A stretch of 52,692 nt of DNA from assembly GCA_016794365.1 (NCBI GenBank), contig JAEUKB010000025.1:1-52692 (forward strand), in the 5' to 3' direction. Source of the stretch: Myxococcales bacterium (GTDB lineage Bacteria > Myxococcota_A > Polyangia > Palsa-1104 > JAEUJZ01). Position numbers and translations under genes: made by a program. How positions within the stretch are numbered: the first letter of the stretch is position 1; each line of letters starts with the position of its first letter. This document shows positions 10,828 through 35,104 of this stretch, one piece after another. The notes under the pieces were generated by a model. It saw nothing but the letters and a program-made list of their open reading frames with translations, ran no database searches and was not told where the DNA came from.

Positions 10828-12054
10828 TCACGCATGTTTCGGTCCGCAATGTGACACGCCGCTTGCTCGCGCCGGTGCTCCAGTCGGTCCGTGTCGGTGC
10901 GCTGTCGCCATTGCTGAAACTTGGAAGATGTCCCCGACGACGACATCGTCCGCTTTCGCCGTTGCGCCACCGGCAGACAGGCTCGCTGGGGCAGCAAAGG
11001 TGCCGTTGCCGTTGCCAGCGACGAAGCTGACCGTTCCTTGCGCACCATGAGAGATCGCCAGATCCAGCTTCCCATCGCCGTTGAGATCCGCTGCTGCGAT
11101 TCCCGTCGAGCCAACCGGGATCGTCAGCGAGCTTGGCGCTTTGAACGTTCCGTCGCCATTGCCGAGCGCGATCGTCAGCGAGCCCATGCCGGTGCCGCCG
11201 CCCGGATTGGCCACAACCATGTCCAGCTTGGTGTCTCCGTCGAAGTCACGCAGCACCACCGCGTTCGGAGAGTTGCCCGTCGCAACCGTCGGCTTCGCAG
11301 TAAACGTGCCCGTGCCCGTTCCAATCAGCACGCTCGCCGTGTTGCTTCCCGAGTTCGTCACCACCGCATCCAGCTTGGTGTCTCCGTCGAGGTTGGCAAA
11401 CGCGATCGCGCGCGGCTGCTGGCCCACATTCGTGGTCATCGCCGTCCCAAACGTGGAGCCGCCATTTCCCGGCAGCAGGCTCACCATGCCTGGCGTCAAA
11501 AGCGACACCAGCACATCGGGCTTGCCGTCGCCCGTAAAGTCAGCGACCACCAAGTTGCGCGGACCGTTGAGCGAGTTCGTCGCCGTGCTTGCGACGGGCA
11601 TAAAGCCGAAGGTGTTGCTGCGATAGCGCAGGATGTTGCTCGCGCTGCCCGACTTGCCGTCGGGATTGGTCACCACAACTTGCGTCGCTCCGCAGGTTCC
11701 CGCTTTGCCTGGAACCGTCAGCGTGATCGTCGTCGGAGAAGTCACCATCACATTGGTTGCAGCAGTGCCACCGATCGTCACCGTCGCGCCCTGGACGAAG
11801 TTCTGTCCGGTCAGCGTGATCGTCGTGCCGCCCGTGTTGCCGATCGCCTCAGGCGAAGCCTGCGTGACCACCGGCGCTGCAACCGTCGTCATATCGACAT
11901 CGCCGCCAGTCATCGTCATATCCGCAGTCGTTCCGCCTGCATCGGTACCCGACGTGGTTTCGTTGTTACAGCTGGCAACGTAGGAAAGCGCGAGCACAGT
12001 TCCCAGTCCCAGACCCAGCAGCGAGCGAGTAAAGCGAAGCGTCTTAACTTTCAT
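10828..12054 (-). CDS. Secreted lipoprotein with an IPT/TIG-like domain and FG-GAP/VCBS (integrin-alpha-like) repeats
   Basis: 408 aa. Signal peptide plus lipobox (VASC). Repeats such as DFTGDGKPDVLV, DGDTKLDAVV, DFDGDTKLDMVV and DLNGDGKLDLAI alternate with G-rich strands. The long + strand track ORF 10921..12165 is antisense to it. Confidence 0.7.
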   Translation of the reverse strand: MKVKTLRFTRSLLGLGLGTVLALSYVASCNNETTSGTDAGGTTADMTMTGGDVDMTTVAAPVVTQASPEAIGNTGGTTITLTGQNFVQGATVTIGGTAATNVMVTSPTTITLTVPGKAGTCGATQVVVTNPDGKSGSASNILRYRSNTFGFMPVASTATNSLNGPRNLVVADFTGDGKPDVLVSLLTPGMVSLLPGNGGSTFGTAMTTNVGQQPRAIAFANLDGDTKLDAVVTNSGSNTASVLIGTGTGTFTAKPTVATGNSPNAVVLRDFDGDTKLDMVVANPGGGTGMGSLTIALGNGDGTFKAPSSLTIPVGSTGIAAADLNGDGKLDLAISHGAQGTVSFVAGNGNGTFAAPASLSAGGATAKADDVVVGDIFQVSAMATAHRHGPTGAPARASGVSHCGPKHA

Positions 12055-22456: not shown

Positions 22457-23074
22457 CTAGCCTTCGGGCAGATCGGACAGTCGCGGCAGGTTCTTGGTCT
22501 TGTCGTCAGACTTCTTGGCGCGCGGCTTGTCGCTCTTTGGCTTGGCCGGAGCCGCTTTTGCGTCAGCAGGCTTCGCGTCGGCAGATTTTGCGTCAGCGGA
22601 TTTAGCGTCAGCAGGCTTGGCATCAGCAGATTTAGCGTCGGCAGGCTTGGCATCAGCAGCTTTTGAATCCGTCGATTTTGCGTCAGCGGACTTTGCGTCA
22701 GCAGGCTTGGCTTCCGCTGGCGGCGGAGCGGGAGTCGGTGGCGCAGCAGCAGCGGCAGCTTCAGCGGCGCGCTGTTTGGCAGCGGCTTCGTCTTTGGCGA
22801 CCGCACGCAGGTGCAGCACATAAAACACCAGCGCAGTGACGGCAATCAGTCCGATCAGGATCGGCATCACCGGCAGACCGGCTTGCTTGCCTCGGCGATG
22901 ACGGCGCTCTTCCGCATCTAGATCGATGTGATCGTGGCGCAGCTGTCCGCTCGGCTCTGTGGGCGCTGCTGGTTTCGCTTCAGCCGTCGCTGGTTTTTCT
23001 GGCGGCGCGTCTCCCGTGCTGTCTGGGGATGGTTCCGCCGAAGAGGTCTGTGGTTTGGGCTCGTCGCTTGACAT
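22457..23074 (-). CDS. Hypothetical single-pass membrane protein with a C-terminal (P/S)ADAK pentapeptide repeat tail
   Basis: Track ORF is 22457..23191. I chose the Met of MSSDEPKPQ at 23074. Pro/Glu-rich N-terminus, one hydrophobic helix (LPVMPILIGLIAVTALVFYVL), then about 14 ADAKS/ADAKP repeats. Confidence 0.5.
   Translation of the reverse strand: MSSDEPKPQTSSAEPSPDSTGDAPPEKPATAEAKPAAPTEPSGQLRHDHIDLDAEERRHRRGKQAGLPVMPILIGLIAVTALVFYVLHLRAVAKDEAAAKQRAAEAAAAAAPPTPAPPPAEAKPADAKSADAKSTDSKAADAKPADAKSADAKPADAKSADAKSADAKPADAKAAPAKPKSDKPRAKKSDDKTKNLPRLSDLPEG
22560..22709. repeat. Ten tandem 15-nt units (gcgtcagcaggcttg / gcgtcagcggattta types) encoding the ADAK(S/P) repeats
   Basis: Read directly in the sequence. 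Confidence 0.75.
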
Positions 23075-23267
23075 CGTGCTCGGCCAGCATACCAGCGGCG
23101 GACCGATTCCAGCAAACCTCCAGACTGGGCCGGGAGTACCGCGTGACGCACTGCACGGCTCGGACCGCTGGTACGGAAAAGTCCCGAGCAAACCGCAGCC
23201 TGGCCAAGTCGCTCGGTTGGCGCTGTACTCACGACGGAAAGACGCGCTAACATAGCAAGGAAGTAGC

Positions 23268-26200
23268 TTGGGGGAGCCTATGACCGCTTACCTACTCACC
23301 GGCAACGATTTAGTGAAGACACCGTGCCATGAGTGCTTTGGTCCTGCGTGGCTGCGCCGATTGTTCAGACGAAAGACTTCGCTGGGCGGCTTGCTGCTGC
23401 TGCTGCTGTCGTTCTTTTCGGCCTGTAGCAGCGAAGATGCGATCGTCCTGCAGATTCGACCTCCGTCGGGCGTATCGATCAATGAATACGCTGTCACGGT
23501 CCAGGATCGCAGCAAGCGTGTGATCTTGTATCAGTCAGGCATTCAGCCGGTGGCGGCGGTCAGCAAAGGACGCGATCTGTTCGCGCAGCCGCTGCGACTG
23601 GGCCTGAAGCTGTCGCAGAAAGCGGAGTATCTGGTTCACGTTCGCGCTGCCGAAGACAAGCTGGTTCCCGACGGTGTGATTCCGAACTCGCGCAAGGCTG
23701 AATACTTCTTTGCGGAGATCGTGAACGTCTCGGGCACCCAGCAAGTGGACGCAGATTTGCTCGAAGTCGATCCGATGCTGGATCTTGACTTTGACCACTT
23801 TCCCGACGCGGTGAAGTGGACCGACGAGCTCAAAGAAGCCAAGGTCAAGTATCAGGCGAAGCTCAATGTGCTCGACTGCGTGGATCGCGATCCGGGTCCG
23901 ACGGAGATGAAGCTTCCGACGGGACTGTACGCGGTCGATATCAATCCGCTGGCCAAGCCGCGCTGTGGTCTGCCGTTTGATGTGTCGTGTGGTGACAGCG
24001 TTCCGCCGTGTCAGGATCGGGACGGCGACGGCGATCCCGAGAGCACGGACTGCGACGACAACGATCCGGCGCGCTTTCACGGAAATCCGCGTCCGCGCAA
24101 CTGCTGTGAGTGTACCGACAAAGCAAGCTGCACGCAGAACCACAACAAGCTCAAGGACATGTCGGCGTGTATGCCTGCGCGCTGCGATTCAGCGACGGAC
24201 TTCGACTGCTCTGGCAAGATCGTTCCGTGCTTTGTCGATGACGACTGCGACGGCTATTCGCCCAACGATCCGGTGGTGAGCCAGCGCGACTGCGACGACA
24301 CCAACCCGAACATTTATCCGGGTGCCAAGAAAAACTGTGCCGACACGAGCAAAGACTGGGCGTGCGACGGAAATCCGTCGGGCGGCTGCGTGGACTGCGA
24401 TCTCGATGGTGACGGTTATCAGCGTGACGACAAAGCGCAGGGCGGAATCTGTCCAACCGCGCAGTACACAGCGTCGGGAAAAAAGATTGACTGCGACGAC
24501 AACGATCGCGGTGTGTTCCCCAGTTCGACATCGTATAACGGTGCCAGCCAGATCATGGGCCTGATGGATCTGAAGGGCGTCGAGGGTGGCGGCTCGAAGC
24601 TGGCAGCGATGCGACAGCTCTGTGCGAACACCCAAGTGGACGGAGCGACGGCGCAGGACTCGGACTGTGACGGATCGGCGCGCAATGGCTGTCCGGCGAA
24701 CCCGACGACGTGCGATCGCGACATGGACGGCTTCCCGAATCCGACGGCGGGCTGCAACACGCTCGGGCTGCCGATCGACAACAACGACACCGACTATCAG
24801 AGCTTCCCTGGTGCGCCGGATCGCTGCGGCGACGGCAAAGCGCAAAACGGTGTCGCGGACATGCCTTGTAATAACGATGCCGACGGAGACAAGTACAACG
24901 CGGATGCCGACTGTGACGACAACGATCCGAACACGCATCCGTGGGCTACGGAATTGTGCGATGGAAAAGACAACGACTGCGACGGAATCATCGACGAGCT
25001 GAACCCGGACGACAAGGGCGCTCGGATGGTGGAAAAGAGCCCGGTCACCAACAAGAACGTGATCTTGTCGTGTACGGACTTCGCGCTCGGAGAGTGCAAT
25101 CGCACGGTGGCAGCGACGGGACTGAAGACGGGACGCTGCGTCTGTAGTGGGCTCAAGCCCGGTGCGCACGACAAGACTGGCATCAAGGCTTGTCCGGGCA
25201 CGCGCGACGACGCCATGACGGCTCCGAAGTGCTTTGGCGCGCAGCAGAAGGAAAAGCAGACGTGCGAGTCGGTTGTTGCGAACAGAAAAGATCAAGACTG
25301 CGACGGACGACTGGATGCGCCGGACGGCATGAACCTGCTTGAGTACGGTCAGGTCTGCGGCGTCAGCACCGGAACGTGCGTGGCGGGAACGGTGAACGGC
25401 TGTGACTACACCACGACCAATCCGTTTTCGATCTCGTCGGGATTTGCGGTTTCGCCCGCGTTTGATGAGACACGGAAGTATCTGACCTGCGCGGCTGCGA
25501 CCGGACCGAAAAAGCAGCTCTGCGACGGAAAAGATGAAAACTGTAACGGCGTAAACGATGACTGCTCGGACTACGGGGCGGCGAACTCAAGCTGCTGCAA
25601 GAACGTCGCAATGTGCGTAAACATCGGGACGGACTTTACGCACTGCGGAAACTGCTCGACGGCCTGCGATGCGATGACAGCCAACGCGTGCGTCAACAAG
25701 CAGTGCATGTGCGGCACCAATCCGGCGTGTAACGGCGCGCGCGACATGTGCAAAAACGGTACAAGCTGCGTCGAGTGTCTGGCCAATGGCGACTGTAACG
25801 ATCCAGCCAAGCCGGTCTGCAAAGGTCAGGACTCGTGCGTCGAGTGCGTGGCCAACGGAGACTGCCAAGATGCGGCCAAGCCTGCGTGCAACAGCGGAAC
25901 CGATAGCTGCGTTCCTTGCACGACTGGCTTTGGCTGCAACGGCGCGACGCCTGTTTGTAAGGTGAACGCGAACGCTGCGCTCAACCAGTGCGTGCAGTGT
26001 CTGGCCAATGCGGACTGCGCGGGCGTAGCCGGAAAGCCTGCGTGCGATACCACGACGAATCAGTGCGTGCCATGTCTGGCGGGCTTTGGCTGCACGGCTC
26101 CGAACGCGCAGTGCAAGGTGAACGCAGACTCTTCGCTGAATCAGTGCGTGCAGTGCCTTGGGGATGCCAACTGTCTGACGACTCCGGCGACTCCGGCATG

Positions 26201-26852
26201 TGACTTGGGAATCAACAAGTGCGTGGCATGTACGGCGCTGAATACGATGGCGTGCGTGGCTCCGCTTTCGAAGTGTCTGACCAACTTGGATGCGACGAAG
26301 AACAAGTGTGTGGAGTGTACGGCGAGTGCGCAGTGCGGAACCTCGAAGCCGCTGTGTGACACCGTGACCAGCAATCGCTGCACCGCGTGCTTGGTCAACA
26401 TGGACTGCACGAGCATGGCGACTCCCAAGTGCAAGGTGGACAACACCGATGTCACCAAGAACGCTTGCGTGGGCTGCTTGATGAATGCGGACTGCGCAAA
26501 CCCAACGCCGATCTGCGAAATGACCACCACCAACAAGTGCGTGGCGTGTCTTGTGGACATGGACTGCGGTGCTGGGAAGTTCTGCATCACCAACGCAAAT
26601 CCGCTGGCCAACAAGTGTGTCGAGTGTCGCAACGATACCGACTGCGGAACTGGCACTCCGGCGTGTGACACCACGACCAAGACCTGCGTTCCGTGCCGAG
26701 CGAGCGGTGCGGTTCCTCATGTGGGCTGCATGGATCCAACTCACGCTTGCTTGGTCAACGCAAACCCTGCGATGAACATGTGTGTGGAGTGTACGCAGAG
26801 CTCACACTGTAGCGGTGGGAAGACCTGCCAGGTAGACAACACCTGCGCCTAA
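23268..26852 (+). CDS. Giant secreted cysteine-rich repeat protein (MopE-like DCDD..PGA..E.CDG.DNDCDG motifs followed by Myxococcus-type CxxC...C repeats)
   Basis: 1194 aa. N-terminal hydrophobic signal (LGGLLLLLLSFFSAC). Residues roughly 250-600 carry many DCDDxDP..PGA.E.CDGxDNDCDG-like motifs. Residues roughly 800-1194 carry about 14 tandem 24-28-aa units of the form CVxCLxNxDCxxxxKPxCxxxxxx. The long antisense track ORFs 24189..25295 and 25587..26744 are artefacts. Confidence 0.75.
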   Translation: MGEPMTAYLLTGNDLVKTPCHECFGPAWLRRLFRRKTSLGGLLLLLLSFFSACSSEDAIVLQIRPPSGVSINEYAVTVQDRSKRVILYQSGIQPVAAVSKGRDLFAQPLRLGLKLSQKAEYLVHVRAAEDKLVPDGVIPNSRKAEYFFAEIVNVSGTQQVDADLLEVDPMLDLDFDHFPDAVKWTDELKEAKVKYQAKLNVLDCVDRDPGPTEMKLPTGLYAVDINPLAKPRCGLPFDVSCGDSVPPCQDRDGDGDPESTDCDDNDPARFHGNPRPRNCCECTDKASCTQNHNKLKDMSACMPARCDSATDFDCSGKIVPCFVDDDCDGYSPNDPVVSQRDCDDTNPNIYPGAKKNCADTSKDWACDGNPSGGCVDCDLDGDGYQRDDKAQGGICPTAQYTASGKKIDCDDNDRGVFPSSTSYNGASQIMGLMDLKGVEGGGSKLAAMRQLCANTQVDGATAQDSDCDGSARNGCPANPTTCDRDMDGFPNPTAGCNTLGLPIDNNDTDYQSFPGAPDRCGDGKAQNGVADMPCNNDADGDKYNADADCDDNDPNTHPWATELCDGKDNDCDGIIDELNPDDKGARMVEKSPVTNKNVILSCTDFALGECNRTVAATGLKTGRCVCSGLKPGAHDKTGIKACPGTRDDAMTAPKCFGAQQKEKQTCESVVANRKDQDCDGRLDAPDGMNLLEYGQVCGVSTGTCVAGTVNGCDYTTTNPFSISSGFAVSPAFDETRKYLTCAAATGPKKQLCDGKDENCNGVNDDCSDYGAANSSCCKNVAMCVNIGTDFTHCGNCSTACDAMTANACVNKQCMCGTNPACNGARDMCKNGTSCVECLANGDCNDPAKPVCKGQDSCVECVANGDCQDAAKPACNSGTDSCVPCTTGFGCNGATPVCKVNANAALNQCVQCLANADCAGVAGKPACDTTTNQCVPCLAGFGCTAPNAQCKVNADSSLNQCVQCLGDANCLTTPATPACDLGINKCVACTALNTMACVAPLSKCLTNLDATKNKCVECTASAQCGTSKPLCDTVTSNRCTACLVNMDCTSMATPKCKVDNTDVTKNACVGCLMNADCANPTPICEMTTTNKCVACLVDMDCGAGKFCITNANPLANKCVECRNDTDCGTGTPACDTTTKTCVPCRASGAVPHVGCMDPTHACLVNANPAMNMCVECTQSSHCSGGKTCQVDNTCA

Positions 26853-26950
26853 GCGGGACTCTGTCTTCGATTCGTTCGGAGGTGCGGATGCTGCATCCTC
26901 CGAGTCCCCCGAGTCCTTCCTGATCGATTCTGCGCTACGCTGATCTGCGC

Positions 26951-27760
26951 ATGATTCACAAGACGCTGCTTCATAAAGGCTGTCGGCTCAGCTACTACGT
27001 AGATGGAGAAGGGCCTTCTGTGGTGCTGATTCACGGAACCTCTGTCTCGGGAAACGCGTGGCGTCCGCAGATTGATGCGCTCCGTCCGCACTTTCGCTGC
27101 CTGTGGTTTGACAATCGCGGCTACGGGGAAAGCCTGCCGATTCCTTCGTCATTGACCGTCGAACAGATGGGTGAAGATGTGCTGGCGCTGATGGATGCAG
27201 AGTCCTTTGATCGCGCACACCTTGTCGGTCATTCCTTGGGCGGAGCCATCGCGCTCTGTGCCGCATCGCAAGCGCCAAGTCGGGTGCTCAGCTTGTCTCT
27301 GCTCAATACATTTGTGTCGGGTCGAGCGCCGCTGCGACTTCATCCACAGCTCCTTTGGAAGAACCTTCGATCGATGATCGGAACGGCTGCGATGCGTCGG
27401 CGCGCGCTCCTAGAGCTGATGATGCCTGCGGACTATCTGGCGCAGCACAACCTAGACAAGCTGGCTGCACAGGTGAGCGCGCTGTTTGGTCGTCCGCTGG
27501 AAACGATGCCGCCGATTGCGATGAAGCAGATTGTTGCGATGTCTCGCTTTGATGGATCGAGTCTGCTTGCGGCGCTACAAGGAACGCCTACGCTGGTGAT
27601 GAGCGCGCGCCATGATCTGCTGACTCCACCATCGGAAGGAAAGCGTCTTGCAGAGGGCCTGCGGGGTCGCTACGTAGAGCTTCCGAGCGCTTCCCATGCG
27701 GCTCCGATTCAGTGTCCTTCGGAAGTCAACGCGCTGCTGCTTTCGCACCTGCGTCAATAG
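26951..27760 (+). CDS. Alpha/beta-fold hydrolase
   Basis: 269 aa. HGTSVSG oxyanion region, nucleophile elbow GHSLGG, and a C-terminal His in SASHAAP. Confidence 0.8.
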   Translation: MIHKTLLHKGCRLSYYVDGEGPSVVLIHGTSVSGNAWRPQIDALRPHFRCLWFDNRGYGESLPIPSSLTVEQMGEDVLALMDAESFDRAHLVGHSLGGAIALCAASQAPSRVLSLSLLNTFVSGRAPLRLHPQLLWKNLRSMIGTAAMRRRALLELMMPADYLAQHNLDKLAAQVSALFGRPLETMPPIAMKQIVAMSRFDGSSLLAALQGTPTLVMSARHDLLTPPSEGKRLAEGLRGRYVELPSASHAAPIQCPSEVNALLLSHLRQ

Positions 27761-27772
27761 GAATCACCGTCG

Positions 27773-29593
27773 CTACTTCATTCCCATCGCAACTTGATAG
27801 TCAATCGCAGGCATGCGCAGCGTCTGTCCGATCGCAGGAAGCGGAAACGGAACGAAGCCGCGATCTTTCCAGATCACCCACAGATAAGAGGAGTCTTCTA
27901 GGACTCTTTGAAAGCGGAACGCAACGCGGGTAGGAATGCCGGTTGGACTGACTTCCAAGATGGTCGCCGTCATGTTGGACAGCGTGATCTGCTCTGCGAC
28001 GTGGAACGGAAGGGACGGACTCCGAAACACGCTGCTTAGTGGATCCTGAAGAAAGCCTTCGCTGGGCGCAAGGATGAGCGTGTGCTCGTCGGTCCGTGTG
28101 ATCTCTAGCTCTCCGCGCTGCACGATCGAAAGAAGACGAATGGCATCGCCCATCTTCTGGGCTTCTAGGAAGCGATAGCTGACGGAATAGACCGCAACCA
28201 GCGGATCGGGCGCGTTGACCATCACCAAGGTGCGACTCGGAAACAGCTCACTCGGCGGTAGCGTCGCTGCGGCACGCGGCACGGTGGTTCCCAGCGTCTT
28301 GGCCAAAAAGGAAATCCGCAGGGGCAGAAGCACGCTCGCCAGCACGATATGAATGAACACGATTCCGATGATCGTGAGCGTCCGTAGCCCGCGAGTCAGT
28401 CCGCTGTGCTGCGCGCGCGTAGTCCACAGCACGGACAGGAGCTGACTGAGCAGTCCAAAGGCACCAAGACCGCTGCACAGCAGCAGTCGATCGCTCGGCC
28501 ATACCGCACAGACCGGAAGCAGAGACAGCGTCATTCCTGTTGCAAAAAACGCGGCAGTCTTGGCGGTCTGTGACTGAGCAGACAGGATGCGAAAGGACAG
28601 AAAGGAACAGACTCCCACGATCAGCGTAGCAAGCAGCGCAGCGATAGGAAGCACAGTGGTCGGAGTCTGCATCCAGACATCCGCAGGAGGCAGTCCAAGC
28701 TGGGCCAGCAGCAGCAGCGGAAGACGGATCAACATCGTCGAAACGTAGTGCAGCGGCTCGCTCACCGGATCGATGTACATACCGCTTCCCGCACTGCCAT
28801 AGCCAAGCAGCTTGTAGGTCGCCGCCCACAGGATTCCGATCAGCACATACGGAATCAGACTGGCCAGTCGGGACAGCAGCGGACCTTGTTCCATCCACAG
28901 CACGTAGGCGAAAAGATACGCAGCCGTTCCGACGGCAGTTTCCCCGGATAGGAGTCCGAGTAGGAGACACAGCGGACCCAGAAATCTGCCGCTTGGAAAG
29001 GTTCCGTTTCGGTAGCGAATGAAGCACAGCAGCGCCAAAAATCCAAACAGGACGGCCCACAGCGCGTTGCGATTGGCGATCCACATCACCACCATGGAGT
29101 GTGCATCATCGACGGCAAACATCAGGACTGCGAGCCCCGCTGCCAGCGTGAACCCGAGCAGCGTTTGATACAGCGTTCCCAGCACGACAACGATCGCCAA
29201 AAACAGCAGCATGCTTTCCAAGTGCATCAGCCACGCCGCTTCGGGCCACAGTCGATAGTCCAGCGCATGATGCAGCGAGCTAATGGGACGAAAGAACGCA
29301 AGCCGCAGGTTGGGAGTCGTCCACCACGGCCACAGTCCTTGATTCAGATGATGCTGAAAGTAGCTGCGATCGGGGCCCTGAAAACGGAACAGATCCCAGT
29401 CTCCGAGCGGACCTCCAGGAATGCGAAACTGCGGCCAGAATGTCAGTCGGTGCGGATAGTCATCCAGCATAAATCCGGCGCTCAGCGCTGGCAGCATCAG
29501 CACAAGCGACAGAAGACCGATCCAAAGCAGCAGTCGCTTTGATGTAACCAGCGCATCCAGCCACGCAGACAGAGTCGTACAGAACCGCTTCAT
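27773..29593 (-). CDS. Polytopic integral membrane protein, possibly a GT-C-fold glycosyltransferase (ArnT/PMT-like)
   Basis: 606 aa with at least 10 predicted hydrophobic helices. A DD motif in the first extracytoplasmic loop (FMLDDYPH) is followed by a large soluble C-terminal domain, the architecture typical of GT-C enzymes. The family call is tentative. Confidence 0.55.
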   Translation of the reverse strand: MKRFCTTLSAWLDALVTSKRLLLWIGLLSLVLMLPALSAGFMLDDYPHRLTFWPQFRIPGGPLGDWDLFRFQGPDRSYFQHHLNQGLWPWWTTPNLRLAFFRPISSLHHALDYRLWPEAAWLMHLESMLLFLAIVVVLGTLYQTLLGFTLAAGLAVLMFAVDDAHSMVVMWIANRNALWAVLFGFLALLCFIRYRNGTFPSGRFLGPLCLLLGLLSGETAVGTAAYLFAYVLWMEQGPLLSRLASLIPYVLIGILWAATYKLLGYGSAGSGMYIDPVSEPLHYVSTMLIRLPLLLLAQLGLPPADVWMQTPTTVLPIAALLATLIVGVCSFLSFRILSAQSQTAKTAAFFATGMTLSLLPVCAVWPSDRLLLCSGLGAFGLLSQLLSVLWTTRAQHSGLTRGLRTLTIIGIVFIHIVLASVLLPLRISFLAKTLGTTVPRAAATLPPSELFPSRTLVMVNAPDPLVAVYSVSYRFLEAQKMGDAIRLLSIVQRGELEITRTDEHTLILAPSEGFLQDPLSSVFRSPSLPFHVAEQITLSNMTATILEVSPTGIPTRVAFRFQRVLEDSSYLWVIWKDRGFVPFPLPAIGQTLRMPAIDYQVAMGMK

Positions 29594-29740
29594 GGAGTCT
29601 TTCCTGCGGACACTTTAGCGGAAGGTGTGCGCGCTGTGGGAAACAGAATCTGGCCACCCTGCGCGCAATGCACTTACGGCGCATTCGCGGCGCATTCGCA
29701 GTGCATTTGATGACGCACCACGGGCGCGAAAAACTGTGCG

Positions 29741-32566
29741 ATGATGCGAAGATATGCACAGGTCTGGGGAGGGAGTCTGATGCAAGGACGTATGACGCAA
29801 GGCCGCTGGCTTTGGTCGCTGGGAATCGCGCTACTTGGCATTCCACCGTCGGGATGTATGACACGTAGCATCAGCTCGACAGATGACTCTGCGCTGCCTC
29901 GGGAAGGTCGCGATGCGCCGCAGCCGGTTCCGCTGAAGAACTTTCTGCAAGACAAGGAAGTGCGGACTACGCCGGGTCTGTTTGTCTCGTATTCCTACCG
30001 CAACAAGACCTACATGCTGGTGCAGGGCAAGCAGCTTGGGAAGCCGTTTATGCTGACCGCTGCGGTCAATCAGGGAACCGGACGACGTGGTCCTGAGGAT
30101 GTGCTGGGAACGCTGACCGGAACGCTGCTGCAAGATCGCGTGGTGATGTTTGTCCGTCATGGCAATCGCTTGTATCTGATGGAGCAGCCGCATGCGTACT
30201 TGGATCAAAAAGACGCATGGACGGCGGTTCAGCGGACGTTTTCTCCGACGGTGATTGCTTCGATTCCGATCTTGGCTGAAGACCGTTCCGAAGCGTCAAA
30301 GGAGTCCGGTAAGGAGTCCGGTAAGGAGTCCGGTAAGGAGTCCGGTAAGGAGCCCGGTAAGGAGCCCGGTAAGGAGTCCGGTAAGGAGCCCGGTAAGGAG
30401 TCAGCAAAAGACTCGGGTAAGCGTGCTCCCAAGAGCAGAGAGTCCACCCGCAGTGGCGATGTACTGGTTGGACTGGATGAACTACTTTTGGAAGATCTGT
30501 TCGCAAGTGCAACGATTGGACGCGATCATCAGAAAGCAGCGCGCAAGCTAAGCTTTGTGGAAGGAGTCAGCGGAACCACGCAGAGCACGTCGCTGCGCGT
30601 GCGTCTTGGCTATCAAGTTGCGACCGTGACAGAGTTGGGACACGCGGTCAACTCGATTGGGATTACCTATTCCTTTTTGCAGCTTCCCGCCATGACGATG
30701 CAGCGCCGGGCTGCGGATGATCGCATCGGGACGTTTGTGACGCACTTTCGTGACTTTCGTAGCAAAGATCCCAAGCAGCAGTCGCATGCAGTGACACGCT
30801 GGCGACTAGAGCCACATCATCGCGAAGGGAGCTTGCTGGTTCCGGTGCGACCGATTGTGTTCTATCTGGATCCGGCGACTCCCAAAGCGTATCAGCCGTA
30901 CATTCTCGACGGAATTCGTCAGTGGAATCGCGCATTTGAGGCCGCAGGCTGGAAGGATGCAGTGCGCGCGGCGCTTCTGCCCAGCAAGACCGCGCTGGAT
31001 GATCCGCGCCTCGCGGTGATTCACTGGGATGTGGGGGAACACTCGCTTGGGGGACGAGGATCTCCGATCGTGGATCCGCGCTCGGGAGAGATCTTGAGCG
31101 CAACCCTCATCCTGTCCCACAGTCCGGTGCGCGAAGGTCTGCGTCAGCGTCGGACGTTTTGGGGAACCAGCGACATCGAGTCACCGAGCACTGCGCTCGA
31201 TCAAGATGACGATGAGCTATCGGCGGTGCTGGGTCAGCAAGGAGACGTTCTGCGCGCGCTGCTTCTAAGCCAGAAAGTCATCCTTCCCAGCGACTCTCTG
31301 CCGGATCCGCTGATTGGACAGAAGCTGCGCTACATCGCGATGCATGAAGTCGGTCACGCACTGGGTCTACGTCACAACTTTCGCGCCAGTACACTGTGTC
31401 CTTCCGACAAGCTCGGCGATCCCAAGTGGCTGAAACAGAGTCCTTCGATCGCGTCGGTGATGGACTATCCCGCGATGAACCTTCCCAGTACACCAAGCGA
31501 TGCCGCTTCATCGGACTTTCCGTATTATCCGCTCAGCATTGGTCCTTCTGATCTGCTGAGCATTGCGTATGCATACTCTCCTGATCCGCTGTATGTTGCG
31601 GGTCTTGCAAGCCAAGCTGCGCAGTGGGGATATGTCTTTGGCAGCGACGAAGAAGCCAGCTTGGGAGCCGATCCTTCCGTGCAGCGCTGGGATCTGGGAA
31701 GTGAGCCCCTTTTGTGGGCCAAAGAGCGTACGCAGAAGATCAAAGAGCTGTGGCTTGCGCTGTCCCAAGGAACGCTTCGTCCCGGTGATCGTCCGACGGA
31801 TGTGACCCAAATTGCGCGATCGTTGCTGCATGACTATCGCGGCGCGGTGCAGGCCGTTCCTTCCTACATTGGGGGTCGCTACGGATCGCGTGATCACATC
31901 GGAGACGCAGCGTTTCGTCCGGCGATGCGTCCGGTGGAAAAGAGCAAACAGAGTGCCGCGCTTTCCTTTCTGCTCAGCGATGTCTTTGCGGAAAGTACGC
32001 TGCCGATCACTGCGCTGCTGGCGCAGCAGCTTGGCGAAGACTATCTGACTTCATCGAGGCTGACGGGACAGCGCCAAGCGGTGGTTCCGCTGTGGCGACA
32101 AGTGCTGGAGCTGCGGATTCAGGTTCTGAGCACGCTGCTTTCGCCGCTGCGCTTGCGCCGGATGGTCGATGGAGAGCAGGCCTTTGGACGCGATGCAGTG
32201 CTCTCTGTGGGAGAGCTGCTGACCCAGCTTACGCAGTCGCTGTGTTCCGAAGTGCTGAGTGCTTCGTCTGTGCCGATCTCCCCGCTGCGGCGAGAGCTTC
32301 AGCTTCGCTACATCGAGCGACTGAGCCAGCTGGTCCTGCACGCAGAGCCGGAAAGTCAGCACGCGCGTGCGCAAGCGCGATATCAGCTTCAGCTCTTGGA
32401 TGGGAAGCTGGACGAGCTAAAGTTCAAGCGGAGCCAGCTTGATGTCGATACCCGCGCACACCTAAGCGAGCTGGCAGATGCGATTTCATCGACGTTGAGT
32501 GGCTCACGCGTGATTCATCCGCTGCGCGAATCGCGGATGCAGGGTGGGGAATCGGACCCGATGTAG
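29741..32566 (+). CDS. Secreted zinc-dependent metalloprotease (DUF4953 / met-zincin family) lipoprotein
   Basis: 941 aa. Signal plus lipobox (LLGIPPSGC). HEVGHALGLRHNF zinc-binding motif and a downstream SVMDYP Met-turn. A (K/E)(E/S)(S/P)GK low-complexity insert is present. The true start could be one of the internal Met at residues 14-18. Confidence 0.8.
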   Translation: MMRRYAQVWGGSLMQGRMTQGRWLWSLGIALLGIPPSGCMTRSISSTDDSALPREGRDAPQPVPLKNFLQDKEVRTTPGLFVSYSYRNKTYMLVQGKQLGKPFMLTAAVNQGTGRRGPEDVLGTLTGTLLQDRVVMFVRHGNRLYLMEQPHAYLDQKDAWTAVQRTFSPTVIASIPILAEDRSEASKESGKESGKESGKESGKEPGKEPGKESGKEPGKESAKDSGKRAPKSRESTRSGDVLVGLDELLLEDLFASATIGRDHQKAARKLSFVEGVSGTTQSTSLRVRLGYQVATVTELGHAVNSIGITYSFLQLPAMTMQRRAADDRIGTFVTHFRDFRSKDPKQQSHAVTRWRLEPHHREGSLLVPVRPIVFYLDPATPKAYQPYILDGIRQWNRAFEAAGWKDAVRAALLPSKTALDDPRLAVIHWDVGEHSLGGRGSPIVDPRSGEILSATLILSHSPVREGLRQRRTFWGTSDIESPSTALDQDDDELSAVLGQQGDVLRALLLSQKVILPSDSLPDPLIGQKLRYIAMHEVGHALGLRHNFRASTLCPSDKLGDPKWLKQSPSIASVMDYPAMNLPSTPSDAASSDFPYYPLSIGPSDLLSIAYAYSPDPLYVAGLASQAAQWGYVFGSDEEASLGADPSVQRWDLGSEPLLWAKERTQKIKELWLALSQGTLRPGDRPTDVTQIARSLLHDYRGAVQAVPSYIGGRYGSRDHIGDAAFRPAMRPVEKSKQSAALSFLLSDVFAESTLPITALLAQQLGEDYLTSSRLTGQRQAVVPLWRQVLELRIQVLSTLLSPLRLRRMVDGEQAFGRDAVLSVGELLTQLTQSLCSEVLSASSVPISPLRRELQLRYIERLSQLVLHAEPESQHARAQARYQLQLLDGKLDELKFKRSQLDVDTRAHLSELADAISSTLSGSRVIHPLRESRMQGGESDPM
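30299..30418. repeat. Nine or ten tandem 12-nt units (aaggagtccggt) encoding the SGKE repeats inside the DUF4953 protease gene
   Basis: Read directly in the sequence. Confidence 0.8.
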
Positions 32567-32755
32567 CAAGCCGCACAGTGAGCGGTCTGCTTCGGATGAT
32601 GGAGAGTGGGGGAAAACTCCCATCCCCTGATGAGCGTTTTCCCACTTCCGCGACGGAAAGAGCCCGGTCATAACTCTGTACAGATGGTGGTCGCAGCGCG
32701 GCCAGAGCGAAATCCTTCGCTGATTCCCTCACCCTTTGTAGACAGAGGACTTCCC

Positions 32756-35104
32756 ATGACTCGTACTTGTACGCTTCGGTTTCTGTCCCATGTGGCGCTC
32801 TTTTCGTGCTCGGCGGCGATGTTTGCTTCCGGTTGCGCGCAGACTCAGCCTGATGCTGCTGCCACGGAAGAAGAGCTGCTTGCCGCTGCGGTGACAGAGA
32901 AGGGATCGTCTCTGCGCACGCTCGGCTTTGAGGAAGCATCTCTCGACGCTGTCAGCAAGCAGCCGGTGCTTCTGTCCGGTCGGGTGGCGGCCTCTGTTCG
33001 CAACCAACAGGAAGCGCGCGACTTTGTCATGAACACGCTGTCGCGCTCTCTGCGGCTTGCTCCGGAGTCGGACTTTGCGTTTGTGCGTGAGTCGCGCGAC
33101 ACCGACGGTTATCGCTACGTACGGCTGCGTCAGATGCACAGCGGACTTCCGGTGTGGGGCCAAGAGCTGACCCTGCAAGTTGCGGAAGATGGCGCGGTTC
33201 ATGCGGTCCTGGGACGCACACTGCCGGACCTGCGAATCGGAACTCGTCCGTCGCTGACGGGAGCCTCTGCGCTGGCTTCGGCGCTGGCGCAGCTTGTGAA
33301 AGGGGGCTCTGTGCTCACCCACAAGACGCCCGCGCTGATCATCTTTGGCGATGCAGAGTCCGGCAGCCTGGCGCTCGCGTATCACGCGGTGGTCGAATAC
33401 GAAGGAGCAGAAGGTCACGCGCTGGAAGATCTGTTTGTCGATGCGCACAGCGGACGCGTGCTTTCGCAGGTGTCGCGCATTCACACCGGACTTAACCGAT
33501 CGATCTATGACGGAAAGTCGGCGTGCCTCTCGACCGGCAGTGAGCTGCCCGGCACGCTCCTTTACAACGAGGGCGGAACCAGCAGCGACGCTGTCGCCAA
33601 CGCCGCGTACACCAACACTGGAGCGACCTACTGGTTCTATAAGAACTTCCTCGGACGCGACTCCTACGATGGTGCGGGCGCGCTGCTCAAGTCGTCGGTT
33701 CACTTCACGTTTTCAACGGGATTTTCATGCTCGGGAGCCAACGCAGCCTGGCTGAGCGATCCCTACAACCAGATGGTCTACGGCGACGGCGATGCTTCGA
33801 CGTTTAAGCCGCTGTCCCAAGCCATTGATGTCACCGCGCACGAGCTGACCCACGCTGTGACCGACAAGACCTCGGGACTGATTTACTCCAACGAGTCGGG
33901 CGCGCTCAACGAAGCGATGTCGGACATCTTCGGTGCCGCAGCCGAAGCGTGGGTTGCATCCGGTGGAACCGCAGCAGGAAATCCGGCCAGCATCAGCGCG
34001 ACCGCCAACACCTGGAAGATCGGTGAAGAGGTTGCCAAAGCCGGACTTCCCGGTGGTGCGCTGCGCTTTATGAACAACCCAACCGCCGATGCGTACAGCA
34101 AGGACTACTATCCTGAGCGGCTCACTGGCTCGTCCGACAACGGCGGAGTCCACGGCAACAGCGGCATCGCGAACCTGGCATTTTACCTTCTGTCGCAGGG
34201 CGGCACACACCCGCGCGCCAAGACCACCGTATCCGTCACCGGAATCGGCATCGAGAAAGCAGCCAAGATCTTCTACCAGGCCAACACCACCGCGATGCTG
34301 TTGCCCAGCGCGGCCAAGTTCCAAGATGCGCGCAATGCCACCGCGCAGGTTGCCAAGAATCTGTACGGCGCATGCTCGGCAGAGTGGGTCAGCACCCAAA
34401 AAGCGTGGGATGCCGTCGGAGTTCCGGGAACTTGGACGCCCTGCGGAACGGGTGACACGGTGGCTCCGACGGTGAGCGTGACCGCGCCAACCGCTGGATC
34501 GACGCTGACAGGAACGGTTGCGGTATCGGCCAATGCCAGCGACAACATTGGTGTTGCGAGCGTCGATTTCTACGCAGGCACCGCGCTGATTGGCAGCGAC
34601 ACGACGGCACCGTACTCGGTGAACTGGAACACCACGGCGGTCGCAAACGGAACCTACAGCATCACGGCCAAGGCCAAAGACGGAGCAGGCAACGTCGGAA
34701 CCTCGACGAGCGTTTCAGTGACAGTCTCGAACAGCGGCACCGGCACCACGCAGAACGAAGCCGAGTCCAACGGATCGTTTAACCAAGCCAACACGGTGCC
34801 GATCTCGGGAACCACAGTCACGGGCTTTATCTCTTCGACCACCGACAATGATTACTTCAAGGTCACACTCGGTGCGGGCAAGACGCTCCAGGCTGTGCTG
34901 ACGCCACCTTCGGCTTCGGACTTCGACCTGTACATCTACGATCAGAACAAGGCGCTCGTCGCCAAGAGCGAAAAAGACGTTGGCTTGGTGGAATCGATAA
35001 GCGCCGTCAACAAAGCGGCCAGCGCCGGAACCTTCTGGATTCACGTCAAGTACTACTCGGGCGCATCGAAGGTGAACCCGTACACGCTGAAGCTGACGTT
35101 CTAG
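32756..35104 (+). CDS. M4 (thermolysin-family) metalloprotease lipoprotein with C-terminal Ig-like and pre-peptidase C-terminal (PPC) domains
   Basis: Track ORF starts at 32606. I chose the Met of MTRTCTLRFLSHVALFSCSAAMFASGC (32756), which gives a signal peptide plus lipobox. HELTHAV (HExxH) and EAMSDIFG (third zinc ligand) are present. A propeptide-like N-terminus and two C-terminal beta-rich domains are also present. Confidence 0.85.
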   Translation: MTRTCTLRFLSHVALFSCSAAMFASGCAQTQPDAAATEEELLAAAVTEKGSSLRTLGFEEASLDAVSKQPVLLSGRVAASVRNQQEARDFVMNTLSRSLRLAPESDFAFVRESRDTDGYRYVRLRQMHSGLPVWGQELTLQVAEDGAVHAVLGRTLPDLRIGTRPSLTGASALASALAQLVKGGSVLTHKTPALIIFGDAESGSLALAYHAVVEYEGAEGHALEDLFVDAHSGRVLSQVSRIHTGLNRSIYDGKSACLSTGSELPGTLLYNEGGTSSDAVANAAYTNTGATYWFYKNFLGRDSYDGAGALLKSSVHFTFSTGFSCSGANAAWLSDPYNQMVYGDGDASTFKPLSQAIDVTAHELTHAVTDKTSGLIYSNESGALNEAMSDIFGAAAEAWVASGGTAAGNPASISATANTWKIGEEVAKAGLPGGALRFMNNPTADAYSKDYYPERLTGSSDNGGVHGNSGIANLAFYLLSQGGTHPRAKTTVSVTGIGIEKAAKIFYQANTTAMLLPSAAKFQDARNATAQVAKNLYGACSAEWVSTQKAWDAVGVPGTWTPCGTGDTVAPTVSVTAPTAGSTLTGTVAVSANASDNIGVASVDFYAGTALIGSDTTAPYSVNWNTTAVANGTYSITAKAKDGAGNVGTSTSVSVTVSNSGTGTTQNEAESNGSFNQANTVPISGTTVTGFISSTTDNDYFKVTLGAGKTLQAVLTPPSASDFDLYIYDQNKALVAKSEKDVGLVESISAVNKAASAGTFWIHVKYYSGASKVNPYTLKLTF

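What the first reader, a model, noticed from the sequence alone, without database searches (positions are those of the whole stretch)
23268..35104. Contiguous secreted/cell-surface block: giant Cys-rich repeat protein, hydrolase, GT-C-like membrane protein and two different zinc metalloproteases
Within 12 kb, every product is predicted to be exported. There is a 1194-aa protein with two kinds of cysteine repeats, an alpha/beta hydrolase, a 606-aa polytopic protein with a GT-C-like DD loop, a DUF4953 met-zincin lipoprotein (HEVGHALGLRHNF) and an M4 thermolysin-like lipoprotein with Ig-like plus PPC domains (HELTH ... EAMSDIFG). Two unrelated protease families in tandem, together with a giant disulfide-rich adhesin-like protein, resembles the predatory or exoproteome loci of myxobacteria. 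A possible glycosyltransferase between them raises the question of whether the giant protein is glycosylated. Regulatory palindromes occur in two of the leaders; see the separate findings below.
Basis: partly seen in the sequence, partly recalled or inferred. Interest (0 to 1): 0.5.

Follow-up and report, generated by a model that had tools for sequence, protein, structure and literature searches.

The report
Neighbouring envelope genes, not one module
Four neighbouring genes for cell-envelope or secreted proteins (a giant cysteine-rich lipoprotein, a membrane glycosyltransferase and two zinc proteases) plus one cytoplasmic hydrolase lie together in the core chromosome of an uncultured myxobacterium, but nothing shows they work as one system, so the block is largely ordinary.

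Summary

Corrections:
- The hydrolase has no signal peptide and aligns from about residue 10 to PcaD/RutD-type enzymes (soluble by my knowledge), so "every product exported" is wrong.
- The likely starts are 23280, 29780 and 32756.
- PPC is below the Pfam threshold.
- The genes are not an operon. GT-C is on the opposite strand and the gaps are 98-189 bp.

The gene order is conserved only in a narrow clade of uncultured Polyangia MAGs. There the housekeeping neighbours BamD, TPR and CDF are equally syntenic.

Adjacency is lost in 22 more distant GT-C loci, 4 giant loci and 2 DUF4953 loci. The GT-C family is very large (3,457 50%-identity clusters at E<=1e-30) and spans several phyla.

Glycosylation of the giant protein by this enzyme is therefore unsupported. 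The block consists of new members of known kinds and is of low to moderate interest.

The parts
22457..23074 (-). 205-aa protein with one TM helix and low-complexity (AKPAD/AKSAD)n repeats. It is transcribed divergently from the giant gene and has no Pfam family.
   Evidence: A homologue (40-49% id) sits next to the giant gene in L002, L007 and L008. It is absent near the 39-51% giant homologues.
23225..23279 (+). Nearly invariant upstream DNA of the giant gene, promoter-like, followed by the Shine-Dalgarno sequence GGGGGAG.
   Evidence: Alignment A4 of 4 relatives; start-codon scan.
23280..26852 (+). Giant lipoprotein precursor of 1190 aa (the ORF from TTG 23268 gives 1194 aa). It has a long signal region with a conserved MTAY.LTGND extension and lipobox FFSAC (Cys49, 23424-23426). 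An N-terminal beta-sandwich spans about aa 50-200, and acidic MopE-type Cys modules span about aa 200-775.
25767..26828 (+). 14 tandem C-x2-C-x(4-10)-C-x(5-9)-C units (TIGR04201-type Cys-rich repeat) at the C-terminal end of the giant protein. There is no MYXO-CTERM.
26951..27760 (+). Alpha/beta hydrolase of 269 aa with GHSLGG nucleophile elbow (27227-27244). It is cytoplasmic and present in only some relatives.
27773..29593 (-). GT-C-fold membrane glycosyltransferase of 606 aa, with about 12 TM helices and a C-terminal beta-sandwich of about 150 aa. The invariant D44-D45 lies at 29459-29464, in the first extracytoplasmic loop.
29780..32566 (+). Lipoprotein met-zincin of 928 aa with weak DUF5118, DUF5117 and DUF4953. 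Lipobox PPSGC is at 29843-29857, HEVGHALGLRH at 31343-31375 and Met-turn SVMDY at 31454-31468.
30299..30402 (+). In-frame 12-bp tandem repeat x8.7 encoding (KESG/KEPG)n, inside the DUF5117 region.
   Evidence: A near-identical variant, P0241, lacks exactly 24 aa at this position.
32605..32690 (+). Nearly invariant 85-nt leader element upstream of M4. It contains the GTGGGGAAAA / TTTTCCCAC inverted repeat.
   Evidence: No Rfam match and no covariation.
32756..35104 (+). Lipoprotein M4 (thermolysin-like) preproenzyme of 782 aa. Features: lipobox FASGC 32822-32836; FTP propeptide 33071-33217; catalytic domains 33578-34423 (HELTH 33839-33853, EAMSDIFG 33911-33934); Big_7 34466-34669; PPC-like 34844-35047 (below threshold).

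Best explanation
This is a stretch of core chromosome from an uncultured Polyangia (Myxococcota) bacterium. Four independently transcribed genes for envelope or extracellular proteins lie side by side there, with a cytoplasmic hydrolase gene inserted among them.

(1) The giant protein is Sec/Lsp-exported and N-terminally lipidated. It probably sits in the outer membrane or on the cell surface. It carries a beta-sandwich next to the anchor, then acidic MopE-type modules that probably bind Ca2+ or another metal. A rigid disulfide-bonded stalk of 14 TraA-type Cys repeats follows. Its likely role is structural or adhesive. It evolves slowly, so it is not a polymorphic recognition receptor.

(2) The 606-aa protein is a GT-C glycosyltransferase. 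By analogy with the superfamily, it should transfer a sugar from a polyprenyl-phosphate carrier to an acceptor on the periplasmic side, using the invariant DD loop. The acceptor is unknown. It is most likely a general envelope glycoconjugate rather than the neighbouring protein.

(3) and (4) The DUF4953 met-zincin and the M4 thermolysin-like enzyme are lipoprotein-type zinc proteases for extracellular or periplasmic proteolysis. In M4 the lipid anchor precedes the FTP propeptide. Autoprocessing would therefore release the mature enzyme from the anchor.

Shown: the families, the fold, the motifs, the conserved lipobox cysteines and the synteny pattern. Inferred: localisation, metal binding, donor type, protease maturation, and the absence of functional coupling.
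For: - Families and motifs.
- Lipobox cysteines are conserved across orthologues.
- The hydrolase lacks a signal peptide.
- Each gene has its own conserved upstream region, and the strands are mixed.
- tblastn of the window proteins against 34 loci shows the block only in L002, L003, L007, L008, L010 and the fragments L009 and L011. In those loci BamD (86-87% id), TPR and CDF are also syntenic. None of 22 loci with GT-C at 28-49% id carries the other genes.
- No neighbour family recurs around GT-C across lineages.
- Distant giant homologues and DUF4953 homologues have unrelated neighbours.
- The GT-C family has 3,457 50%-identity clusters at E<=1e-30. Full-length giant homologues were found only in Polyangia/'Myxococcales' MAGs.
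- The junction between the giant gene and GT-C varies. It holds the hydrolase, nothing, or a 736-aa FG-GAP-like lipoprotein.
- The window otherwise carries housekeeping genes.
Against: - Within the clade, the order hyp205/giant/GT-C/DUF4953/M4 persists even where the left flank is rearranged (L002, L007, L008). It persists down to 55% GT-C identity, which is compatible with some selective linkage.
- No expression data exist.
- No dedicated signal-peptide predictor was available.
- The GT-C acceptor is unknown, so modification of the giant protein cannot be excluded.
Confidence: 0.68

Rival explanations
1. The block is a dedicated surface or exoproteome module. The GT-C enzyme glycosylates the giant Cys-rich lipoprotein, and the two proteases process it or act with it in predation.
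For: - Adjacency of the giant gene, GT-C, DUF4953 and M4 is conserved in at least 5 MAGs, including those with a rearranged left flank.
- The giant protein has S+T-rich repeat regions and 7 N-x-S/T sequons.
Against: - The genes lie on different strands and each has its own upstream region.
- Adjacency is absent in all 22 more distant GT-C loci, 4 giant loci and 2 DUF4953 loci.
- The GT-C family spans several phyla and is vastly larger than the giant family.
- The junction is prone to insertions and deletions.
- The OST-type WWDYG motif was not seen.
- The structural matches do not discriminate protein, lipid and glycan acceptors.
Confidence: 0.1
2. The two proteases form a functional pair with co-regulated extracellular proteolysis. 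The giant gene and GT-C are unrelated neighbours.
For: - The two genes are on the same strand and adjacent in every clade member that has both.
- Both are lipoprotein zinc proteases.
- The M4 leader carries a strongly conserved element that could be a regulatory site.
Against: - A 189-bp gap separates them, and M4 has its own conserved leader.
- DUF4953 homologues at 48% and 37% identity have no M4 neighbour.
- The two differ markedly in conservation: 57-65% for DUF4953 and 73-80% for M4.
Confidence: 0.17
3. The block is a horizontally acquired island carrying secreted virulence or predation factors.
For: - GC content is slightly lower in 26-32 kb (0.578-0.586) than in parts of the flanks.
- The closest DUF4953 relatives outside the clade are from Gemmatimonadota (33-38% id).
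Against: - There are no integrase, transposase or tRNA landmarks.
- GC content is within the window's range of 0.56-0.65.
- The block is embedded between FdhD/Mo-oxidoreductase/LexA on one side and BamD/TPR/CDF on the other, with the right flank syntenic across relatives.
Confidence: 0.04

Closest known systems
TraA / TIGR04201 Cys-rich repeat proteins of Myxococcus xanthus (PMC3325183)
   Same: Both are Sec-exported myxobacterial envelope proteins with tandem TIGR04201 Cys repeats. In TraA these repeats are proposed to form a rigid disulfide-bonded stalk.
   Different: The giant protein has no PA14 domain and no MYXO-CTERM. It is anchored by an N-terminal lipobox, and its repeats are at the C-terminal end. 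It scores 33 bits on the TraA model against a cut-off of 750. It is slowly evolving (66-81% id among relatives), not polymorphic.
MopE-related / PF11617 'putative metal-binding motif' proteins
   Same: The PF11617 motif scores E 2.7e-11, and the protein contains several DCDDxD and DxDxDG acidic Cys modules. Database names of the orthologues are 'MopE-related protein' and 'putative metal-binding motif-containing protein'.
   Different: Only the short motif is shared. The N-terminal beta-sandwich and the overall architecture have no solved relative (Foldseek PDB gives no hit at E<=1e-3). Metal binding was not tested.
GT-C glycosyltransferases (ALG12, PMT, STT3/AglB/PglB, AftA/B/D, ArnT)
   Different: Sequence identity is only 8-13%. 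There is no PDB sequence hit. The protein matches no Pfam or NCBIfam model, and only 1 of 44 relatives touches PMT_2. Donor and acceptor are unknown.
Thermolysin (MEROPS M4)
   Same: It has the HExxH motif, the downstream Glu zinc ligand, the catalytic His region and the FTP propeptide. It scores E 3.5e-67 to thermolysin.
   Different: It has a lipoprotein signal instead of a type-I signal peptide, and C-terminal Big_7 plus a PPC-like domain. It scores far below the NCBIfam equivalog cut-offs.
DUF5118-DUF5117-DUF4953 'zinc-dependent metalloprotease' family (PF16313)
   Same: It shares the full architecture and the HExxHxxGxxH motif with a Met-turn.
   Different: It carries a strain-variable (KESG)n insertion. 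The family has no solved structure by sequence search and is mentioned in no paper of the searched library.
3-oxoadipate enol-lactonase / RutD-type alpha/beta hydrolases
   Same: It has the fold and the GxSxG elbow, and the best PDB match is 2xua (PcaD) at E 1.7e-23.
   Different: It is far below every equivalog cut-off, so its substrate is unknown. It is not exported, contrary to the finding.

Membership tests
Peptidase M4 (thermolysin family) | Pfam Peptidase_M4 and Peptidase_M4_C above the gathering score | tested here: met
   77.1 and 172.8 bits against cut-offs of 22.4 and 24.4.
Peptidase M4 (thermolysin family) | HExxH plus a downstream Glu zinc ligand and the catalytic His region | tested here: met
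   HELTH at aa 362-366, EAMSDIFG at 386-393 and GGVHGNSG at 463-470, numbered from ATG 32756. Aligned to thermolysin at E 3.5e-67.
   PF04151 at E 1.3e-4 and 23.1 bits, below the 25.9 cut-off, but covering positions 1-68 of the 70-position model.
Metzincin / DUF4953 (PF16313) | HExxHxxGxxH zinc site, Met-turn and a Pfam match above the cut-off | tested here: met
   204 bits against a cut-off of 24.2. HEVGHALGLRH and SVMDY are present. Catalytic activity was not tested.
GT-C glycosyltransferase superfamily | Polytopic GT-C fold | tested here: met
GT-C glycosyltransferase superfamily | Conserved acidic catalytic motif in the first extracytoplasmic loop | tested here: met
   D44-D45 follow TM1 directly and are invariant in 44 homologues. 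The orientation is inferred from the positive-inside rule.
GT-C glycosyltransferase superfamily | Use of a polyprenyl-phosphate-linked sugar donor | not testable with these tools
   No adjacent polyprenyl-phosphate glycosyltransferase gene was found.
PMT_2 / ArnT-RgtA-D-like family (PF13231) | Match to the family model | tested here: not met
   No Pfam hit for the window protein even at E<=1. Only 1 of 44 relatives hits PMT_2, at E 3.8e-6.
TraA outer-membrane-exchange receptor | PA14-like N-terminal domain | tested here: not met
   No PA14 hit. The N-terminal domain is a generic beta-sandwich with no significant PDB match.
TraA outer-membrane-exchange receptor | MYXO-CTERM sorting tag | tested here: not met
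   The protein ends ...CQVDNTCA without a TM segment or basic tail, and so do all orthologues. NF033759 scores 33 bits against a cut-off of 750.
TraA outer-membrane-exchange receptor | TIGR04201 Cys-rich repeats | tested here: met
   27.1 bits against a cut-off of 25. 14 tandem units were found by pattern.
Bacterial lipoproteins (giant, DUF4953, M4) | Signal peptide ending in a lipobox with an invariant Cys | tested here: met
   FFSAC, PPSGC and FASGC each follow a hydrophobic stretch. The Cys is conserved in all orthologues. No SignalP or LipoP was available. The DUF4953 lipobox has Pro at position -3, which is atypical.
Exported protein (alpha/beta hydrolase) | N-terminal signal peptide | tested here: not met
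   The sequence MIHKTLLHKGCRLSYYVDGEGPS... runs straight into the fold and aligns from residue 9-12 to PcaD, RutD and esterase-type enzymes.
Operon / conserved functional gene cluster | Co-directional, tightly spaced genes whose linkage persists across distant genomes | tested here: not met
   The strands run + + - + + and the gaps are 98-189 bp. Linkage is found only in one clade.

The most novel reading that the evidence does not exclude
The giant, slowly evolving, N-terminally lipidated Cys-rich protein is a previously unrecognised core surface-structure protein of an uncultured Polyangia lineage. In this clade the adjacent, unmodelled GT-C enzyme is its dedicated protein glycosyltransferase. 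The two lipoprotein metalloproteases would then act in its maturation or turnover. Together they would form a self-contained surface-glycoprotein assembly module.
Probability: 0.07. Interest if true: 0.55.

Novelty: new member of a known kind. Interest (0 to 1): 0.25.

Why it matters
As a block it matters little. It is a correct annotation of neighbouring envelope genes with no demonstrated joint function.

Two components have some standalone value:
- The 606-aa protein represents a very large GT-C glycosyltransferase family found in several phyla. It comprises thousands of 50%-identity clusters. No Pfam or NCBIfam model captures it, and its acceptor is unknown.
- The giant protein defines a conserved family of lipid-anchored, MopE/TraA-repeat proteins. 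The family is so far seen only in uncultured Polyangia, and no relative has a solved structure.

Either could be a target for structural or functional work on myxobacterial envelopes.

Tried and rejected
- **Recurrent neighbours of GT-C.** I clustered all ORFs from 32 loci around GT-C homologues. Only shadow ORFs and clade-restricted families recur.
- **PDB sequence searches.** The GT-C profile and the DUF4953 protein gave nothing useful.
- **Foldseek (PDB) of the giant model.** No hit at E<=1e-3. There were only generic beta-sandwich or adhesin matches to the N-terminal domain.
- **Literature.** DUF4953, DUF5117, DUF5118, PF16313 and PF17148 returned zero papers.
- **Consensus promoter and terminator scan.** Results were at or below chance.
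- **Hammerhead ribozyme.** The CTGATGAG in the M4 leader made me consider one. I rejected it because stem II and GAAA do not fit and Rfam finds nothing even at E<=10. RNAalifold shows no covariation.
- **Shared regulatory motif.** CGCGACGG.AA occurs upstream of both the giant gene and M4. With one mismatch allowed it gives 18 matches in the window against 9.7 expected, mostly inside genes, so it is not convincing.
- **First search for related loci attempt.** The 44-sequence alignment failed because it has no conserved 7-mer. I repeated the search with 10 sequences.
- **dN/dS.** Not attempted, because synonymous sites are expected to be saturated at these divergences.

Full report
**Observation**

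The five ORFs exist as described.

Pfam and NCBIfam confirm most assignments:
- Giant protein: PF11617 MopE motif (E 2.7e-11) and TIGR04201 Myxo_Cys_RPT (27.1 bits against a cut-off of 25).
- Hydrolase: Abhydrolase_1 (E 1e-28).
- DUF4953 (E 4e-60) with DUF5117 (E 7e-17), plus a weak DUF5118.
- M4: FTP, Peptidase_M4, Peptidase_M4_C and Big_7, all above their cut-offs.
- PPC at the M4 C-terminus covers the whole model but is below threshold (23.1 against 25.9 bits).

The catalytic motifs are present. In M4 they are HELTH, EAMSDIFG and GGVHGNSG. In the met-zincin they are HEVGHALGLRH and SVMDY. In the hydrolase it is GHSLGG. Thermolysin is the closest solved relative of the M4 enzyme (E 3.5e-67).

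The giant protein has 117 Cys (9.8%). It contains four DCDDxD...P cores and seven DxDxDG-type loops in its acidic middle part. Fourteen tandem C-x2-C units lie at aa 830-1183.

**The membrane protein**

This protein matches no Pfam or NCBIfam model.

A search found 483 homologues, mostly in Polyangia such as Sorangium, Polyangium and Chondromyces at 41-46% identity. Some are named 'Glycosyltransferase RgtA/B/C/D-like' by UniRef.

D44-D45 lie directly after TM1 and are invariant. This is the expected position of the GT-C catalytic acidic motif.

Only 1 of 44 relatives touches PMT_2. A profile search finds 3,457 50%-identity clusters at E<=1e-30 and 8,414 at E<=1e-10. This is a large GT-C family that current models do not cover.

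**Export signals and starts**

Ortholog alignments support these starts:
- Giant gene: ATG 23280, preceded by the Shine-Dalgarno sequence GGGGGAG.
- DUF4953: ATG 29780.
- M4: ATG 32756.

In each of these three proteins a hydrophobic stretch ends in a lipobox whose Cys is conserved in all orthologues. The lipobox variants are:
- Giant: FFSAC/LLSAC.
- DUF4953: PSGC/LPGC/VPGC/QPAC.
- M4: ASGC/AAGC/VSGC/LSGC.

The hydrolase starts MIHKTLLHKGCRLSYYVDGEG..., and this sequence is already part of the fold. It aligns from residue 9-12 with PcaD, RutD and esterase-type enzymes, which I take to be soluble enzymes (my knowledge). The hydrolase is therefore not exported. The claim that every product is exported fails for one of the five.

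**Organisation**

The strands run + + - + +. The gaps are:
- 98 bp between the giant gene and the hydrolase.
- 12 bp between the hydrolase and GT-C, which converge.
- 186 bp between GT-C and DUF4953, which diverge.
- 189 bp between DUF4953 and M4.

The giant gene, DUF4953 and M4 each have their own conserved upstream region. Consensus promoter and terminator scans give nothing above chance.

The rest of the window is housekeeping. It includes an aminoacyl-tRNA synthetase, MalQ, RNase H, LexA, a Mo-oxidoreductase with FdhD, BamD, a TPR protein, a CDF transporter, RF and NusA. This is core chromosome, not an island.

**Synteny test**

I fetched 28 genome loci around GT-C homologues and several metagenome contigs. 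I then ran tblastn with 13 window proteins against all of them.

The order hyp205 / giant / (hydrolase) / GT-C / DUF4953 / M4 recurs in L002, L003, L007, L008 and L010, and in the fragments L009 and L011. All are uncultured Polyangia/'Myxococcales' MAGs with GT-C at 55-64% identity.

In the same loci BamD, the TPR protein and the CDF transporter follow in the same order. Their presence means the conserved order reflects general synteny of close relatives.

The left flank breaks just beyond hyp205.

The hydrolase is present only in the two closest relatives. L008 has a 736-aa FG-GAP-like lipoprotein at that position instead.

The other genes of the block are missing near more distant homologues:
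- None of the 22 loci with GT-C at 28-49% identity carries any of them within 10 kb. These loci come from Polyangium, Sorangium, Chondromyces, Planctomycetota, Gammaproteobacteria, Bacteroidota and Anaerolineae.
- No other neighbour family recurs around GT-C.
- Full-length giant homologues at 39-51% identity have no GT-C or protease neighbour.
- DUF4953 homologues at 48% and 37% identity have no M4 neighbour.

**The giant protein**

Orthologues are unusually well conserved for a surface protein. They share 66-81% identity, against 55-64% for GT-C and 86-87% for BamD. Such slow divergence is unlike a polymorphic TraA-like recognition receptor.

It shares only the TIGR04201 repeat with TraA. In TraA that repeat is proposed to act as a rigid stalk (PMC3325183). 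PA14 and MYXO-CTERM are absent.

The AF2 model has pLDDT 75.6. It shows a confident N-terminal beta-sandwich, loop-rich acidic modules and a beta-hairpin repeat stalk. No solved structure matches significantly.

Full-length family members were found only in MAGs.

**Mechanistic reading**

Shown:
- The families, the fold and the motifs.
- The conserved lipobox cysteines.
- The synteny pattern.

Inferred:
- The giant protein is a lipid-anchored, disulfide-rich and probably metal-binding structural or adhesive envelope protein.
- The GT-C enzyme transfers a sugar from a polyprenyl-phosphate donor at the periplasmic face to an unknown acceptor.
- Both proteases are lipoprotein-type secreted zinc enzymes.
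- In M4 the lipid anchor is on the propeptide side. Maturation should therefore free the catalytic domain with its Big_7 and PPC-like domains.

Glycosylation of the giant protein by the neighbouring GT-C is possible. It is unsupported because the two families have very different distributions and are linked in only one clade. I put it at about 0.1.

**Verdict**

The components are new members of known kinds. I found no evidence for a joint system. Interest is 0.25.

Noticed in passing
window 30299-30402: An in-frame 12-bp tandem repeat (AAGGAGTCCGGT x8.7, 95% match) encodes (KESG/KEPG)n inside the DUF4953 protease gene. A variant protein, P0241, is about 99% identical elsewhere and lacks exactly 24 aa (6 units) here. 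This is either a strain-level copy-number polymorphism or an assembly collapse.
   Followed up: partly
window 32605-32690: An 85-nt element upstream of the M4 gene is almost invariant in 6 relatives, while the surrounding intergenic DNA is not. Its sequence is GTGGGGAAAAA.TCCCACCCCCTGATGAG..TTTTCCCACTT.CGCGACGGAAA...CATAACTCTGTAC.ATGATGG. It contains alternative inverted repeats. It has no Rfam match and no covariation, so its function as an operator or an RNA leader is unresolved.
   Followed up: partly
window 23225-23330: The upstream DNA and the first ~17 codons of the giant gene are nearly invariant across relatives. The precursor has an unusually long n-region of about 35-60 aa, with a conserved M(T/L)AY.L... 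extension ahead of the lipoprotein signal. The extension is kept in homologues down to about 50% identity and absent in the 39-45% homologues. The differences within it are mostly synonymous, so it is probably translated.
   Followed up: partly
L037 1-16400 and L038 1-21200: Distant full-length homologues of the giant protein (39-40% id) lie directly downstream of a T6SS gene cluster (VipA/B, Hcp, TssE/F/G, VgrG) and an HTH_3 protein. A PEGA-domain protein and a Ser/Thr kinase follow. The same arrangement occurs in two different MAGs.
   Followed up: no
window 22457-23074 (- strand): A 205-aa protein with a single TM helix and (AKPAD/AKSAD)n low-complexity repeats is the constant divergent neighbour of the giant gene within the clade (40-49% id). 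It has no Pfam family.
   Followed up: partly
window 27773-29593 and homologues P0001-P0500: The GT-C protein belongs to a very large family of full-length ~600-aa proteins. The family has 3,457 50%-identity clusters at E<=1e-30 and occurs in Myxococcota, Planctomycetota, Gammaproteobacteria, Bacteroidota and Chloroflexota. Pfam and NCBIfam do not model it. It has invariant DD, R, E and H residues and a C-terminal beta-sandwich.
   Followed up: partly
window 29677-29707: An 11-bp direct repeat (CGGCGCATTCG x2.8) and an 8-nt inverted repeat (AATGCACT/AGTGCATT) lie in the divergent GT-C/DUF4953 intergenic region. The repeat region itself is not conserved in relatives. The proximal 60 nt before the DUF4953 start are conserved.
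   Followed up: partly
L008 11797-14007; L007 and L010 between GT-C and DUF4953: The junctions of the block are prone to insertions and deletions. L008 carries a 736-aa Cys-rich FG-GAP-like lipoprotein where the window has the hydrolase. L007 and L010 carry about 600 bp of extra DNA between GT-C and DUF4953.
   Followed up: no
window 10828-12054 (- strand): A further probable exported protein (TIG/IPT plus FG-GAP repeats) lies about 11 kb upstream of the block. Genes for surface proteins are therefore common in this chromosome region.
   Followed up: no
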